Assembly (NCBI GenBank): GCA_035546635.1
Contig: DASZWJ010000034.1
Coordinates: forward strand, 159,548 to 223,547
Length of the DNA: 64,000 bases
Direction: 5' to 3'
DNA from: Gammaproteobacteria bacterium
Lineage (GTDB): Bacteria > Pseudomonadota > Gammaproteobacteria > JAURND01
Shown here: positions 6,001-24,000 of the stretch, one piece after another
Position numbering within the stretch: the first letter of the stretch is position 1
Layout: each line of letters opens with the position of its first letter
Made by a program: the position numbers

Positions 6001-9000
6001 AGGATATGAAGGAAAAGGCGCCCAGTCTACAAAAAAATCCAGTAATTGCTGAGATTGAAGAAAAAATATTCTACCATGCAATTGATAGAAAAAAGCCGGA
6101 AATTATAGAGCAACTGATGAAAATTAAAACCAGAGATGGTGATACACTGTTTACTTGCGATCATGAGATATATCGATATGCTGTTAAAAGAAAACGCGAC
6201 GATATTTGTAAATTGTTGCTTCCTGAACCGTCTCAGCAAGCGGATATGGAAGAGGAGGATTTGCAAGTTGTGGGTCAACTGCAAGAACCACAAGACAAGA
6301 AAAATGAAAGCGATGATATAATCAGAGTCCGCAGTACGACGCTTGAACGTCTCGGAGATCAGGAGACAATAACAATTCATCAACCTAAAACAGATATGGC
6401 CGCAGCGTTAGGCGTTGGGATTTGTTTATTTCAATTACAAGGAAATGATCTTCCACCGCTGCAAGGAACTACTACACAAACTGGAATAAATGCCCCACAA
6501 ATCGACATCGAGAATTTTGATTTCACCGATCTCGATGAAGGAGATGATTCTGATCCTGAATTTGAATATATGCTCGGGGAGCAAGTAAAACCGTAATTGA
6601 ATTTGAATTACCTCGATGAGGTAATCGCCTTGCGAGGATTTTGGCTATTTATTTTTTGGGCATAATACTAATTTAAGCATGTCGTGTTAGAGTTTGAACT
6701 ATTTAGAAAAGTTATTCTTTGCAATTTCCTTTATATTGATTTTTGAGGTTTTTTTATGTTAGAGAAATTAGTAGATAATATGCTCGAAATATCACGTTAT
6801 AGAATACATTCTTATCAGCGAGGGGTTGGCGCTGGCGTAGATAATTATCCATTGTTTGGTGTATTATTTGAGAATAAATGCGAATTACTATGTGACACTC
6901 TGCAAACAATTGAAGCGTTGCTCAAAGGGGTAGAGGAGGTGATTCATCGTAGCCCTGGAGAAATCAAACAGATAAAAGGTGAAGAATATCCAAGTCCGGA
7001 AATACCAGCTGAGCTGATTAAGTCTAAAGAGAATGTTATTAATAAATTAACACCACTCTATCGAGAAACGCTAAGCATTTTTTTAAACTATAAATTATCT
7101 TTGCTAAAAGATTTAGGGTTGCAGGAACTAAAACATACGAGTAAGTTATTTGTTGATAAGATGAGTAGGGCATATAGAAGTAATTTTTGGGAAGAAAAAT
7201 CAAAAATTACTTCGTTATCAGAGTTGAGTTACGATAAATTTTCAGAAGAATTGAATAAAATTTTAAATGAGCTGCATAAGAAAAATTTTGAGAATTTCAA
7301 AAAGCAGAAGCTGCCGATTGATGAAAAAGTTCCATCAAAAAAATTCCGATAGTCAATTCAGTAGAGACATTCCTCTTTCAAGTTTTTTTGGATCGTTGGG
7401 TTTTTCTTTTGCTGAAATTTCCAGCAATATTGTCGGCGATATAGAGCGACGCCATACCGATAATGCCCCCCAGAATCACATTTTCTACGCGTTCTAAGGC
7501 GATCTGTGGCGTAGCAGTCGCAAGATAAGATGCCAATGCGATAAAAAAACACCGACAAGTAAAAGCGACACGATAAGTTTTAAAAGTCACGAGTGACATC
7601 ATCACTGCTAAGACGGCGATGGAGTAAGTGACGATATTTTTAGGTAAAAACTGCCCTACAAAAAACCCTAAGGGTACCCCGATGAAAAGACCAATCAAGC
7701 GGTCTTGTATCTTCTTTTTTGAACTACTTAAATCTGCAGTAATCACTGCAGCAGTAGACCATATGACCCATTCGCCATGGGGAATCGGTTTATAAATAAC
7801 AATACTTGCTGCAATTAATATCCCGAAAAAAATCGCTGCCGCTTGTTTTACCCAGTTCTCCTCTATTTTTCCCCAGGCTTCACCGTGTAAAATGCGCTGT
7901 GTTAATGATTTAAATTCAAGGCCAGAAGGATCATTGCTTAATTTAGAATCAGCCAGTGCATGCATTACGATGACCAACACCATGTTAGTGAGTAAGGCAA
8001 TCGGCATTAACAACACAAATTGTCTGTAAACATGAGTGATAGCCGTGTGTTGCAAGCTTTCATGTAATTCGCAGGACAAATAAACTGCTGGGATAAAAAT
8101 AAAATTAGCTAAACTGCGCAAATTAGAGTCATAGCGAGTAAAATAAATAACGCCAAAGGCAATGGCGGCAGTAAAGAAAGCGAACAAATACGGTATTTGA
8201 AAGGTAAAAAACAGTAAGGTAAAACATAGCCATATGAGTACAAACTGTAGTAGGGCTAAGTAAAGGCCGGTATGGTTGCGAGCAATGGGAACAAAAAGGG
8301 AAATTGTAACTAGCCCAACGTTAAATAATAAAGGCTCATGAAACCACAAATAGCCGATCAATATAGGTACCAGGGATAATATGCCCAGTATGAGGCTATT
8401 CCATTTGATTTCCTGTTTGATTTGATTAAAATGCATGGGTGCTTGTTATGTCAGTTTTAATTGTGTTGCCAAATAAGATAATCATATTTTCCTACAAAAA
8501 AACTGATAGTTAAAGCAAATATTTCTTCTTTAATGTTAGAAAAACTAACCAATAATCAACTTATGCTCGCCACAAAAATCCTGAAAAAATACCTGCCGGA
8601 TGAATTTTCCATGACTGCTATGGGTAAATTGTTAGCCAAAGCCATGGCTAACCATGGCGCTGGCGCTTTGATTTTTTTGCAAGGCGAATTAGGTGCAGGA
8701 AAGACCACGCTGGTGCGGGGATTTTTGCAGGGTTTAGGCTATTTAGGCCGGGTTAAAAGTCCCACTTATACTCTGGTAGAATCCTATCAAGTAGGGGATG
8801 TTAGCGTGTATCATTTCGACTTTTACCGCATTAATGCTCAAGAAGAGCTGGAATTTATTGGTCTCAATGATTATTTTAGCGAGGGCGCAATTTGTCTTGT
8901 GGAATGGCCGGAGCTTGCACAAGGCTGGTTGCCTGCGCCTGATTTGGTGCTGCATATTGCAGTGCCTGATGAGGGGCGAAATCTGGAAGTAGAAGCGGTG

Positions 9001-21000: not shown

Positions 21001-24000
21001 TCATCATAGTGATTGCTTTATATAGCAGTATGTATACCGTCAGTGAAGGTCAACAGGCACTATTGCTGCGTTTGGGACAAATTGAACAAACGGCAGACGG
21101 TAAAGCCAAAGTGATTAAACCTGGGTTACATTTTAAGATCCCATTTTTAAATCAAGTGCAGAAATTTGATGTGCGTTTGCAGATGTTAACTGTGCAATCT
21201 TCACGTATTTTAACGCAAGATCAAAAATACGTATTGGTGGATTATTACATCAAATGGCGGATAGAGGATTTGCCATTGTATTATCAACGTACAGGCGGTG
21301 ATCCTTTACGTGCTGAAACTTTATTGCAGCAGCAGGTAAATGGTGCGCTGCTCACTGAATTTGGCCAACGTACACTGACAGAAATGGTTTCAGGTGAACG
21401 GGTGAATGTGATGTCGGTACTGAAAGATAGTGCCAATGCCACTGCAAAAAATTTAGGTATTTGGATAGCGGATGTCCGCATTAAAAGTATAGATTTACCT
21501 AAAGAAGTCAGTGAAAAAGTCTACAATAATATGCGCACCAAACGTGAACAAGATGCGACCCAATATCGTGCCGATGGCCGCGCTAAAGCTGAAGCCATAA
21601 AAGCAACTGCGGAAGCCAAAGCGGCTATTGCAGTGGCACAAGCGCAAGTTGCAGCTGCTAACATTCGTGCCCAAGGCGTATCACAAGCATCACAAATTTA
21701 TGCTGATGCTTACAGCAAAAGCCCAGAGTTTTATGCATTTTACCGTAGTCTTGAAGCGTATAAAGTTGGTTTCAATAATAAGACAGATTTGTTAATTCTG
21801 ACGCCTGATAGCGAATTCTTTAAATATTTTAATAATCTGCCGGGTAAAGCAGTTAGCAGCCAACCCAGTCAAGCAACAGGCGGACATTAAGCATGGCGAA
21901 AAATATAATTGTAGTGGGCACGCAATGGGGTGATGAAGGCAAGGGAAAGATTGTTGATTTACTCACAGACCATGCTGCAGGTGTGGTGCGTTTTCAAGGC
22001 GGTCACAATGCTGGGCATACTTTGGTTATCAATGGGGAAAAAACGGTTTTGCGACTTTTGCCTTCAGGTATTCTGCGTGAGGGGGTACGTTGTTTTATTG
22101 GTAATGGGGTGGTCATATCGCCAGAAGCGTTGATTAAAGAAATAAAGGAACTGGAAGAGAAAAACATTCCGGTATCTCAGCGTCTCAATATCAGTCAGTC
22201 TTGCTGTTTGTTACTTCCACATCATGTGGCGTTGGATCAAGCGCGTGAAAAAGCCAAAGGTCAAGCAGCCATTGGTACGACAGGTCGCGGCATTGGTCCC
22301 GCGTATGAAGATAAAATTGCGCGCCGTAGTTTGCGCGTGATGGATTTGTTAAATCCAGAACTTTTACGCATAAAGTTGCAGGAAATCACTGACTACCACA
22401 ATTTTATGTTAGTCAATTATTTTGGCTTGTCTGCTATTTCGTTTGATAAGGTATTGGATGAGTTGTTAGCTTATGCTGAAATTTTAAAACCGATGATTAG
22501 CGATGTATCTTTGATGTTAGAATCCATTCGTGCGCAGGGTGGCCCGCTGTTATTTGAGGGTGCGCAAGGCACTTATCTTGATATCGATCATGGCACTTAT
22601 CCTTTTGTCACTTCTTCTAATACCACAGCCGGCGCAGCGGCGACGGGCAGTGGTTTGGGTCCCTTAGATTTTGATTATGTATTGGGTATTGCGAAGGCTT
22701 ATACCACGCGTGTCGGCGGTGGTCCATTTCCTTCTGAGCTTAAAGATCAGGTAGGCCAACAATTAGCAGAGCGCGGTCAGGAGTTTGGTGCCGTAACCGG
22801 TCGGCCTAGACGTTGTGGTTGGTTTGATGTGGCTTTGATGCGCCGGTCAGTGCAGCTGAATAGTTTATCTAGTTTGTGCATCACTAAATTAGATGTGCTT
22901 GATCCGTTTGCGGTGCTGCGTTTGTGTGTTGGGTATCGCTATCAAGGGCAGTTATTATCAGTGCCTACCGCGGATACGGAGGTATTTTCGCAATGTGAAC
23001 CGGTTTATGAAGATATCGAAGGTTGGCAGCAGACGACATTTGGCATCACGACTTGGAATGATTTGCCCAGAAACGCGCAAAATTATCTTAAGCGTATTGA
23101 AGAGTTGGTGGGAGTGCCTATATCCATTGTTTCAACCGGTCCAGATCGGGAGCACACCGTTGTGCTTGAGCATCCGTTGGCGGGGCAAAAGCGTCAGAGT
23201 AGGGTTTTTTCTTCGTCTAGGGGTGTTTTTGAATAAATAGAGCTTGCTTCACCCCCTTTGAAAAAGGGGGCCGTAGGCCATAAGGCCTACGGGGGGATTT
23301 AAAGAGTTTTGGGTGCGCAATATGGTGTGTTAGTACTCCCAGCTTTTCAAATCCCCCTCAGGCCTTCAGCCTTCGACCCCCTTTTTCAAAGGGGGTAAGA
23401 AGCGCCTGTTGACAGTCTTAACTTCAAATCCAGCAACCGCGGCTCCAGTTTTGCAGCATATTGATCAAACCCACTATTGCGAAACGCCTTAAGCTGTTCA
23501 ATACATTGCTTTTGCAGCATAGCAATCTCAGGGCTAGTGTAAACTTGTTTACCGCCACGGAAAATCGGTACCAGCAAATCTGCCTGATGCTCTGCTTCAG
23601 GAAACAGAGCGCGATCATCAATACCCGTTTCCACATCATAAATCACATCACCCAGAAAACTTCCTCCCTGAAAATAACGTCGTGTGGCAAGTATCCCGGG
23701 TAGAGTTGTTTTATTTGGGCTATCAGAAATTTTAAGCTTATAGTCCCACTGCTGTGCAGCATTTTTTATCGCACTTAATTTGTAAACAAAGTCCATTGCG
23801 GGTTGGTCATAAGCGGTCACCAGGCGTGTACCTACTCCCCAAAGATCAATCGCAGCGCCATTGGCTTTTAAATTAGCTATAGAATATTCGTCCAAATCGC
23901 CACTGGCCAAAATCTGTGTTTCTTGAAAACCAGCCGCATCGAGCATTTTGCGTCCAGCTTGACTCAAGACGGCAAGATCACCTGAGTCTAAGCGAATAGC

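What the first reader, a model, noticed from the sequence alone, without database searches (positions are those of the whole stretch)
8533..23236. Ancestral yjeE-amiB-mutL-miaA-hfq-hflXKC-purA superoperon remodelled: rpoS-htpG inserted and mutL relocated
The order here is tsaE-amiB-[rpoS-htpG]-miaA-[672-aa ORF, HAD]-hfq-hflX-hflK-hflC-purA. mutL is absent from this position and found at 40802-42697 next to nlpD. The placement of rpoS is unusual because it normally follows nlpD. Here nlpD is followed by mutL instead, which suggests a reciprocal exchange between the two loci. Each junction carries a family-A or family-B repeat (11100-11270, 13294-13488, 17530-17692, 18184-18252), so the repeats may have mediated or marked the rearrangements.
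Basis: partly seen in the sequence, partly recalled or inferred. Interest (0 to 1): 0.5.

Follow-up and report, generated by a model that had tools for sequence, protein, structure and literature searches.

The report
Ancient swap of mutL and rpoS-htpG
In this uncultured Coxiella-related bacterium the DNA-repair gene mutL and the stress genes rpoS-htpG have traded places between two otherwise very conserved gene clusters, but the swap is an old trait shared by a whole group of relatives and was not caused by the repeats that now sit nearby.

Summary
The gene order is real. It reads tsaE-amiB-rpoS-htpG-miaA-orf672-HAD(-)-hfq-hflXKC-purA, with mutL after nlpD 27 kb downstream. It is not special to this genome. 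Seven other assemblies keep rpoS-htpG-miaA, six of them with amiB beside rpoS, and a ninth short contig keeps htpG-miaA. Four other lineages have nlpD-mutL. Both derived loci occur together in every assembly where both could be seen. 62 of 80 gammaproteobacterial miaA loci keep amiB-mutL-miaA, and the nearest rpoS outgroups keep surE-VTT-nlpD-rpoS.

The closest complete outgroup, Coxiellaceae bacterium SSA3, has both canonical junctions. It already links mutL to pncA(-) and rpoS to htpG. So two blocks, [mutL-pncA] and [rpoS-htpG], were exchanged on a collinear backbone in the clade's ancestor.

The repeat part of the claim fails:
- Families A and B are dispersed palindromic, terminator-like intergenic elements, with ten sites in the window.
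- They are absent from amiB|rpoS, nlpD|mutL and mutL|pncA.
- They are not enriched at junctions (p=0.16 and 0.58).
- They are absent from the closest relatives, several of which have tight, repeat-free junctions.

This is a modest, apparently undescribed synteny variant.

The parts
1201..2709 (+). nnr (yjeF). It is the canonical upstream neighbour of tsaE. Here it is separated from tsaE by a 1153-aa orphan ORF, a 198-aa ORF and a FUSC-family gene (-).
   Evidence: Pfam YjeF_N plus Carb_kinase. nnr lies directly next to tsaE in L002, L170, L172 and L174.
8533..9910 (+). tsaE-amiB (20-bp overlap). This is the conserved left flank 'A' of locus 1.
   Evidence: NCBIfam TsaE and Amidase_3 / AmiA/B/C.
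9911..10049 (+). Derived junction amiB|rpoS. It is 139 bp and holds no A/B repeat. A -10-like TATAAT at 9927-9932 is conserved as TATA(A/C)T in L169 and L002.
10050..11066 (+). rpoS, in the slot that mutL occupies in other Gammaproteobacteria.
   Evidence: NCBIfam RpoS equivalog 429.5 bits, above the cut-off of 394. Synteny.
11100..11270 (.). Family B palindromic element(s) in the rpoS|htpG spacer (CCCTCTCCC-loop-GGGAGAGGG core plus a 42-nt tandem unit).
11286..11310 (+). Sigma-32-type promoter-like motif TTGAA-N14-CCCTAT upstream of htpG.
   Evidence: Regex scan. An equivalent motif lies upstream of htpG in L002 and L170.
11369..13282 (+). htpG, which travelled with rpoS.
   Evidence: NCBIfam HtpG 837.9 bits. 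In SSA3, htpG lies 4.7 kb downstream of rpoS on the same strand.
13293..13488 (.). Family A nested palindrome (about 155 nt) plus an extra hairpin in the htpG|miaA spacer.
   Evidence: RNA fold gives -136.6 kcal/mol, z = -14.7.
13558..14517 (+). miaA, the first gene of the conserved right flank 'B' of locus 1.
   Evidence: NCBIfam MiaA.
14558..16576 (+). orf672, an orphan protein with three internal modules of about 95 aa. It occupies a variable slot.
16744..17460 (-). HAD-family phosphatase. It is also present at this position in L002 and L169.
17492..17700 (.). Family B-type hairpins and another inverted repeat in the HAD|hfq spacer.
17893..18174 (+). hfq
18196..18251 (.). Half copy of family A after hfq. 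It contains a terminator-like hairpin followed by a T-run (18207-18226).
18464..23236 (+). hflX-hflK-hflC-purA, tightly packed (gaps of 41, -1 and 2 bp).
23248..23400 (.). Family A element after purA. This is not a rearrangement junction.
37279..40777 (+). ispD-ispF-surE-VTT(orf195)-nlpD, the conserved left flank 'N' of locus 2.
   Evidence: The same order is seen in L082, L084, L177 and SSA3.
40778..40801 (+). Derived junction nlpD|mutL. It is 24 bp and holds no repeat.
40802..42697 (+). mutL, in the slot that rpoS occupies in other Gammaproteobacteria.
   Evidence: NCBIfam MutL 858 bits. nlpD-mutL adjacency in L082, L084, L086 and L177.
42698..43279 (-). pncA, convergent with mutL and abutting it (0 bp). 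It travelled with mutL.
   Evidence: mutL-pncA(-) linkage is also seen in L082, L176 and SSA3.

Best explanation
The window shows a lineage-defining gene-order variant, not a recent event.

The starting state is inferred from the outgroup. An ancestor of an uncultured Coxiellaceae-related clade had the arrangement still seen in Coxiellaceae bacterium SSA3:
- locus 1: tsaE-amiB-[mutL..pncA(-)]-miaA-hfq-hflX..purA
- locus 2, further along the same strand: ispDF-surE-VTT-nlpD-[rpoS..htpG]-...

In that ancestor the two bracketed blocks changed places. Both sets of flanks kept their order and orientation. The result is tsaE-amiB-[rpoS-htpG]-miaA... and surE-VTT-nlpD-[mutL-pncA(-)]. That this is the net result is shown.

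The mechanism is inferred. The most economical route for two loci in direct orientation needs two recombination events:
1. The segment miaA...nlpD-rpoS-htpG is excised as a circle. This creates the htpG|miaA joint and, on the chromosome, a pncA|downstream joint.
2. The circle is opened between nlpD and rpoS and reinserted at the amiB|mutL boundary. This creates amiB|rpoS and nlpD|mutL.

Contig L176 (amiB-mutL-pncA(-)-pilVWX) looks like the chromosome side of the first event.

Later, lineage-specific changes followed. rpoS was inverted in L170. amiB was inverted in L172. The amiB|rpoS junction was lost in L013. The miaA-hfq slot gained different genes in different lineages. Intergenic spacers were colonised independently by fast-evolving palindromic elements.

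In the window these elements (families A and B) carry GC hairpins followed by T-runs. They most likely act as 3'-end structures, either terminators or insulators. They would split the old superoperon into units: tsaE-amiB, rpoS, htpG (with its own sigma-32-like promoter), miaA-orf672, hfq, and hflXKC-purA. This role is inferred.
For: The derived order is seen in independent assemblies:
- L002 and L082 lie on one 657-kb contig and are collinear with the window.
- L169.
- L170 and L084 come from one MAG.
- L172.
- L174 and L087 come from one metagenome assembly.
- L175, L013, L003 and L177.

The canonical order is seen in 62 of 80 miaA loci, including Legionella gratiana, Halomonas and many Coxiellaceae MAGs. 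It is also seen in 16 rpoS loci.

SSA3 has both canonical junctions, plus the mutL..pncA(-) and rpoS..htpG linkages. Its two loci have the same relative order and orientation as in the window.

Trees:
- Derived-order genomes are monophyletic with SSA3 next to them.
- The amiB|rpoS genomes are monophyletic in 81% of AmiB bootstraps.
- L013 is nested, with 94% support.

L176 joins mutL-pncA(-) to the pil genes that follow htpG in SSA3.

Repeats:
- Census and Fisher tests.
- Window repeats are absent from L002, L169 and the other relatives.
- Relatives have tight junctions.
- L002/L082 has a different palindrome family, including copies at nlpD|mutL and mutL|pncA.
- Terminator-like modules and a giant hairpin.
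Against: - The order of events and the circular intermediate are inferred. No genome shows the predicted nlpD-rpoS-htpG-miaA partner of L176.
- The position of L176 is inconsistent between markers. It sits inside the nlpD|mutL group by MutL (95%, basal position unresolved). It groups with SSA3 by AmiB (76%).
- In the window the genes after pncA are ald and etfAB, not pil genes. So the right flank of locus 2 is not conserved across the clade.
- All trees are single- or few-protein NJ trees.
- Only 20-kb neighbourhoods of relatives were seen, and most are MAGs.
- No transcription data exist for the proposed units.
Confidence: 0.75

Rival explanations
1. Family A/B repeats at the junctions mediated the rearrangements in this genome, or are scars of them.
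For: Repeats are present in three derived spacers: rpoS|htpG, htpG|miaA and HAD|hfq. Dispersed direct repeats could in principle supply the homology needed for excision and reintegration. In the sister genome L002/L082 a different palindrome family sits at htpG|miaA, nlpD|mutL and mutL|pncA.
Against: - There is no repeat at amiB|rpoS, nlpD|mutL or mutL|pncA in the window.
- There is no enrichment at junctions (p=0.16 and 0.58).
- Seven of the ten repeat sites are at ordinary boundaries.
- The families are absent from the closest relatives, which have the same order.
- The junctions are tight and repeat-free in L172, L013, L170, L084, L086 and L177.
- Copies within the window are 84-93% identical. 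The rearrangement predates splits at about 60% protein identity.
Confidence: 0.04
2. There were two mechanistically unrelated relocations. rpoS-htpG moved into the amiB-miaA gap, and mutL moved behind nlpD at a different time. The reciprocity is coincidental or driven only by selection.
For: - L176 shows that the junctions can be uncoupled, because amiB|mutL is intact while the region downstream of pncA differs.
- L175, L013, L170 and L172 show that these loci keep rearranging.
- A separate lineage (L025, L067, L108) has an RpoS-like sigma factor between miaA and purA.
Against: - Each gene landed exactly in the slot vacated by the other, in the same orientation and with its old neighbour. By inference, the chance for independent moves among roughly 2,000 or more intergenic sites is very small.
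- Every assembly in which both loci are visible has both derived states or both canonical states.
Confidence: 0.15
3. It is an assembly or binning artefact of a metagenome-assembled genome.
For: The window comes from a TPA MAG. L002 shows frameshifts typical of long-read assemblies.
Against: The same order is seen in at least nine independent assemblies from different projects. These include contigs of 0.4-1.7 Mb and short-read Logan contigs that span the junctions.
Confidence: 0.01

Closest known systems
Escherichia coli nnr(yjeF)-tsaE(yjeE)-amiB-mutL-miaA-hfq-hflX-hflK-hflC superoperon
   Same: The gene set, order and strand are the same for nnr, tsaE, amiB, miaA, hfq, hflX, hflK and hflC, with purA following. 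The term and locus are described in PMC12249760 (seen in the search listing). The order is confirmed in 62 of 80 loci.
   Different: - mutL is replaced by rpoS-htpG.
- Extra genes lie between miaA and hfq (orf672 and HAD) and between nnr and tsaE.
- Long palindromic elements sit in four spacers, so co-transcription across the whole cluster is doubtful. This last point is an inference.
surE-pcm-nlpD-rpoS locus of Enterobacteria (for example Yersinia pestis, PMC2736372 abstract)
   Same: ftsB-ispD-ispF-surE-x-nlpD is conserved, and one gene follows nlpD on the same strand with a very short gap.
   Different: The gene after nlpD is mutL, not rpoS. pcm is replaced by a VTT/DedA-type membrane protein. 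That replacement is older, because it is also present in outgroups that keep nlpD-rpoS (L097, L098, L113, L116 and SSA3).
REP/BIME-like and MITE-like intergenic palindromic elements of Gammaproteobacteria (from my own knowledge)
   Same: They are short (55-160 nt), imperfectly palindromic, modular, multi-copy and strictly intergenic. Most lie just after stop codons and carry GC hairpins.
   Different: There is no sequence similarity to any Rfam family. No terminal duplications were recognised. The families are species-specific: the window, L002 and L169 each carry different ones in the same slots.
Block interchange through excision and reintegration of a circular intermediate (a genome-rearrangement concept, from my own knowledge)
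   Same: Two non-adjacent blocks swap positions. The flanks and the intervening segment keep their order and orientation. SSA3 against the window shows this.
   Different: It is only inferred here. No intermediate circle and no recombination sites were identified.

Membership tests
amiB-mutL-miaA-hfq-hflXKC superoperon (canonical gammaproteobacterial order) | tsaE-amiB immediately upstream, on the same strand | tested here: met
   8533-9910
amiB-mutL-miaA-hfq-hflXKC superoperon (canonical gammaproteobacterial order) | mutL between amiB and miaA | tested here: not met
   rpoS-htpG occupy the slot. mutL is at 40802-42697. No mutL remnant was found.
amiB-mutL-miaA-hfq-hflXKC superoperon (canonical gammaproteobacterial order) | miaA-hfq-hflX-hflK-hflC contiguous and co-oriented | tested here: inconclusive
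   Order and strand are kept. However, orf672 and a minus-strand HAD gene lie between miaA and hfq, and palindromic elements lie after htpG and after hfq.
amiB-mutL-miaA-hfq-hflXKC superoperon (canonical gammaproteobacterial order) | Overlapping transcripts from internal promoters, including heat-shock promoters | not testable with these tools
   Only motif-level hints exist: a sigma-32-like motif before htpG and a conserved -10 before rpoS.
surE-pcm-nlpD-rpoS cluster | rpoS directly downstream of nlpD | tested here: not met
   mutL follows nlpD after 24 bp.
surE-pcm-nlpD-rpoS cluster | surE and nlpD linked downstream of ispD-ispF | tested here: met
   37279-40777
surE-pcm-nlpD-rpoS cluster | pcm between surE and nlpD | tested here: not met
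   A VTT-domain protein lies at 39297-39884 instead. The same holds in outgroups.
REP/MITE-like intergenic palindromic repeats (families A and B) | Multi-copy, short, intergenic, and able to form a long hairpin | tested here: met
   Five A sites and five B sites, all intergenic. Fold energy is -136.6 kcal/mol, z = -14.7.
REP/MITE-like intergenic palindromic repeats (families A and B) | Target-site duplications or a cognate transposase (MITE in the strict sense) | tested here: inconclusive
   No duplication is evident in the alignment of four copies with their flanks. No transposase was looked for outside the window.
Repeat-mediated rearrangement breakpoints | The same repeat family at all breakpoints and enriched there | tested here: not met
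   1 of 4 strict breakpoints and 3 of 8 broad junctions carry a repeat, against 7 of 45 background boundaries. The families are absent in relatives with the same order.

The most novel reading that the evidence does not exclude
The exchange was kept because it rewires regulation. It puts rpoS inside a stress cluster with htpG, hflX and hflKC. It also places rpoS next to miaA and hfq. In E. coli, MiaA is needed for efficient RpoS translation (PMC5485728 abstract), and Hfq is needed too (my own knowledge). At the same time it puts mutL under the nlpD-associated, growth-phase-responsive promoters that normally drive rpoS, which would tie mismatch repair to growth phase. A second lineage (L025, L067) with an RpoS-like sigma factor between miaA and purA would then be a convergent case.
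Probability: 0.1. Interest if true: 0.55.

Novelty: new variant of a known kind. Interest (0 to 1): 0.3.

Why it matters
Two of the most conserved gene neighbourhoods of Gammaproteobacteria have exchanged one block each in a whole clade of uncultured, probably host-associated bacteria.

- This gives a clean synteny marker for that clade.
- It is a rare, well-bracketed example of a block interchange. Outgroup states (SSA3, L176) make the sequence of events testable.
- It is a caution that repeats lying next to breakpoints today can be late colonisers of spacers, not the cause of the rearrangement.
- The physical linkage of rpoS with miaA and hfq is a small but testable lead on co-regulation.

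Tried and rejected
- Metagenome scan with RpoS. It found no close relatives (62% or less). It was useful only for showing canonical nlpD-rpoS in outgroups.
- UUX-leucine codon bias of rpoS as a sign of MiaA dependence. The value is 0.63 against a window mean of 0.59, so there is no signal.
- Loss of the AmiB C-terminal LysM domain as a scar of the breakpoint. Rejected, because canonical-order outgroups L018, L019, L028 and L031 also lack it.
- L013 (ubiH-rpoS-htpG-miaA) as a pre-exchange intermediate. 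Rejected, because it is nested among the amiB|rpoS genomes (94% bootstrap).
- orf672 as a U-box E3 ligase, which was my reading of the motif. There was no Pfam or NCBIfam hit and no PDB profile hit. phmmer against 1.84 billion representatives found only the protein itself. The AF2 model reached pLDDT 55, and Foldseek returned nothing significant. The idea is unsupported.
- Rfam scan of the window. It found only one tRNA.
- Literature searches found no description of this arrangement.
- A first bootstrap attempt timed out and was redone with a faster distance method.

Full report
**Observation.**

- tsaE 8533-9057
- an Amidase_3 gene in the amiB position, 9038-9910
- rpoS 10050-11066 (equivalog score 429.5, cut-off 394)
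- htpG 11369-13282
- miaA 13558-14517
- a 672-aa ORF with no family match, 14558-16576
- a minus-strand HAD phosphatase, 16744-17460
- hfq 17893-18174
- hflX, hflK, hflC and purA, ending at 23236

Downstream lie ispD-ispF-surE, a VTT-domain membrane protein, nlpD (39908-40777), mutL (40802-42697) and a convergent pncA that abuts mutL. tblastn finds no second copy or remnant of rpoS, mutL, htpG, nlpD or amiB in the window. GC skew is positive throughout the window, so there is no sign of a recent local inversion.

**Source.**

The window's own MutL and orf672 are recorded in NCBI as proteins of a 'MAG TPA: Gammaproteobacteria bacterium' (locus tag VHE99_10090; longest contig 274,903 bp). No GTDB species representative is close. 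The best MiaA match is 69% identical.

**Is the canonical order ancestral?**

I compared window proteins by tblastn with 80 miaA loci from GTDB representatives. mutL lies upstream of miaA in 62 of them, usually as tsaE-amiB-mutL-miaA-hfq-hflXKC-purA. These include Legionella gratiana, many 'Coxiellaceae bacterium' MAGs, Halomonas and Azomonas.

Sixteen metagenomic loci with the nearest non-clade RpoS (44-62% identity) have surE, VTT or nlpD directly upstream of rpoS. The replacement of pcm by a VTT protein is an older trait of this part of the tree.

**How widespread is the derived order?**

It is not private to this genome. The rpoS-htpG-miaA arrangement occurs in these assemblies:

| Locus | Order seen |
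|---|---|
| L002 | tsaE-amiB-rpoS-htpG-miaA-x-HAD(-)-hfq-hflXKC-purA |
| L169 (closest relative; MiaA 82%, HtpG 91%) | same order, with a DnaJ-domain gene where orf672 is |
| L174 | same, with a MaoC gene before miaA |
| L175 | ftsB-ispD-x-ispF-tsaE-amiB-rpoS-htpG-x-miaA |
| L170 | rpoS alone inverted between amiB and htpG |
| L172 | amiB alone inverted |
| L013 | pepP-x-ubiH-rpoS-htpG-miaA |
| L003 | htpG-miaA on a short contig |

nlpD-mutL occurs in L082, L084, L086-L088 and L177.

Wherever both loci can be seen in one assembly, both are derived:
- in the window;
- in L002 and L082, which lie on the same 657-kb contig about 25 kb apart, collinear with the window;
- in L170 and L084, which come from MAG ERZ25039592;
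- in L174 and L087, which come from assembly ERZ926412.

Rough NJ trees make the derived-order genomes one clade, with Coxiellaceae bacterium SSA3 beside it. The amiB|rpoS genomes are monophyletic in 81% of AmiB bootstraps. L013 is nested (94%), so its different upstream neighbour is secondary.

**The outgroup shows that blocks were exchanged.**

SSA3 (CP058706.1, a complete chromosome) has two relevant loci:
- tsaE-amiB-mutL-(DsbD-like)-(MFS)-pncA(-)-(ferritin-like)-miaA-...-hfq-hflX-purA
- about 140 kb further along the same strand, ftsB-ispDF-surE-VTT-nlpD-rpoS-(NlpC/P60)-small ORFs-htpG-x(-)-pilV-pilW

So both canonical junctions are intact in SSA3. mutL is already linked to pncA(-), and rpoS is already linked to htpG.

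In the window clade it is exactly these pairs that sit in each other's former slots. The flanks keep the same order and orientation. Independent relocations would not be expected to land each gene, with its neighbour, in the slot vacated by the other.

**A possible intermediate.**

Contig L176 (GCA_037024635.1) reads amiB-mutL (4-bp overlap)-pncA(-)-pilV-pilW-pilX. It keeps the ancestral amiB|mutL joint. Downstream of pncA, however, it carries the pil genes that follow htpG in SSA3.

This fits a two-step path:
1. An exchange at pncA|miaA and htpG|pil gives amiB-mutL-pncA-pil. It also gives nlpD-rpoS-htpG-miaA, which is predicted but not observed.
2. An exchange at amiB|mutL and nlpD|rpoS gives the present state.

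For two loci in direct orientation this equals excision of miaA...nlpD-rpoS-htpG as a circle, followed by reinsertion opened at nlpD|rpoS. This is inference.

The placement of L176 differs between MutL and AmiB. I had no look-ups left to fetch its rpoS locus.

**The repeats.**

Family A is a modular nested palindrome of about 155 nt. It has the form TCACCCCCTTTGAAAAAGGGGG..GGGGGGATTTAAAGAG..centre..mirror, and folds at -136.6 kcal/mol with z = -14.7. It occurs at 13293-13448, 18196-18251 (a half copy), 23248-23400, 35198-35352 and 61742-61880.

Family B has a CCCTCTCCC-loop-GGGAGAGGG core. It occurs at 11100-11270, 17492-17700, 24869-24902, 43342-43401 and 48689-48736.

Nearly all copies lie just after gene 3' ends. 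Family A carries hairpin-plus-T-run modules that the terminator scan picks up.

Five of the eight junctions that differ from the canonical order carry no repeat. Among them are three of the four true exchange breakpoints: amiB|rpoS, nlpD|mutL (24 bp) and mutL|pncA (0 bp). Seven of the ten repeat sites are at ordinary boundaries. The Fisher p-values are 0.16 and 0.58.

blastn of the window's repeats finds none in L002 or L169. Elsewhere it finds only 15-26-nt hairpin cores.

In relatives the junctions are tight:
- htpG|miaA is -4 bp in L172, 12 bp in L013 and 40 bp in L170.
- nlpD|mutL is 1 bp in L084, 12 bp in L086 and 5 bp in L177.

L002/L082 has its own unrelated 160-nt palindrome family. 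It sits at htpG|miaA and after purA, and also at nlpD|mutL and mutL|pncA. L169 has yet another hairpin in a 779-bp htpG|miaA spacer.

The simplest reading is that these elements invade tolerant spacers repeatedly and recently. Copies within the window are 84-93% alike. The rearrangement is far older, because it predates splits at about 60% MiaA and MutL identity.

**Function (inferred).**

- tsaE-amiB overlap by 20 bp.
- A -10-like TATAAT (9927-9932), right after the amiB stop, is conserved in L169 and L002.
- A sigma-32-type motif precedes htpG in the window, L002 and L170.
- hflX-hflK-hflC-purA are tightly packed.
- nlpD-mutL are 24 bp apart and are probably co-transcribed.

The old superoperon is thus probably cut into several units by the palindromes.

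The idea that rpoS was recruited next to miaA and hfq for co-regulation has no direct support. It rests on E. coli work: MiaA is needed for RpoS translation and for hfq expression (PMC5485728, abstract seen). The UUX-leucine content of rpoS here is average. A separate long-branch lineage (L025, L067, L108) also has an RpoS-like sigma factor between miaA and purA. That is at least suggestive.

**Novelty and verdict.**

Full-text searches found descriptions of the canonical superoperon and of the surE-pcm-nlpD-rpoS locus. They found nothing on this arrangement.

It is a real, clade-wide and apparently undescribed variant of two known conserved clusters. It is best described as an ancient reciprocal block interchange. 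The repeat-mediated mechanism is not supported. Interest is modest.

Noticed in passing
window 14558-16576; L002 11001-11813: orf672 is an orphan: word-based and full HMMER searches find only the protein itself. It has three internal modules of about 95 aa (aa 258-353, 398-501, 571-665). The module occurs once in the 270-aa ORF at the same position in L002 (blastp E = 3e-10). Its motif EDPIsL.E..NPvCv..VYE..F.K reminded me of a U-box, but no tool supported that. L169 and L013 carry a DnaJ-domain protein in this slot instead.
   Followed up: partly
window 13293-13488, 18196-18251, 23248-23400; L002 9754-9941, 13161-13368, 18146-18336; L169 12637-12741: The same three intergenic slots (htpG|miaA, hfq|hflX and after purA) hold unrelated palindromic element families in three sister genomes. 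This suggests repeated, independent colonisation of the same spacers, or targeting of 3'-end hairpins.
   Followed up: partly
L025 9980-15913; L067 1934-5311; L108 328-2600: A separate long-branch lineage has an RpoS-like sigma factor between miaA and purA, with no hfq-hflXKC there. Its best NCBIfam match is RpoS at 382 and 361 bits, just under the cut-off of 394. This is a second, different association of rpoS with this cluster.
   Followed up: partly
L170 10001-11029; L172 9003-9815; L175 5766-9924: Single-gene inversions occur inside the conserved neighbourhood: rpoS in L170 and amiB in L172. In L175, which is basal in a rough tree, ftsB-ispD-x-ispF is joined directly to tsaE-amiB-rpoS-htpG.
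   Followed up: no
L176 1-5069; L173 16344-16984: Contig JBAIGG010004384.1 reads amiB(with C-terminal LysM)-mutL-pncA(-)-pilV-pilW-pilX. The pil genes are the ones that follow htpG in SSA3. Its MutL groups with the nlpD-mutL genomes, but its AmiB groups with SSA3. It could be an intermediate state, or the result of mutL recombination.
   Followed up: partly
window 9038-9910: The window's amiB encodes 290 aa, against 391-435 aa in L002, L169, L170, L174 and L175. The N-terminal part is missing. The C-terminal LysM domain seen in L176, L053 and Legionella is absent from the whole clade.
   Followed up: partly
window 3135-7352: A 1153-aa ORF and a 198-aa ORF, neither with a Pfam match, are inserted between nnr and tsaE together with a minus-strand FUSC-family gene. 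Relatives have nnr next to tsaE, or only the FUSC gene between them.
   Followed up: no
window 836-867 and 32395-32426; 32417-32535; 37010-37167; 16622-16650 and 37225-37253: There are further small repeat families and palindromes unrelated to A and B. They include a 32-nt repeat (94% identical) near the tRNA at 1031-1103, and a 29-nt repeat shared by the orf672|HAD and ftsB|ispD spacers.
   Followed up: no
L172 15239-16710: A BglII-type restriction endonuclease and an MT-A70 methyltransferase are inserted between miaA and hfq in this relative. This is the same variable slot that holds orf672 and HAD in the window.
   Followed up: no
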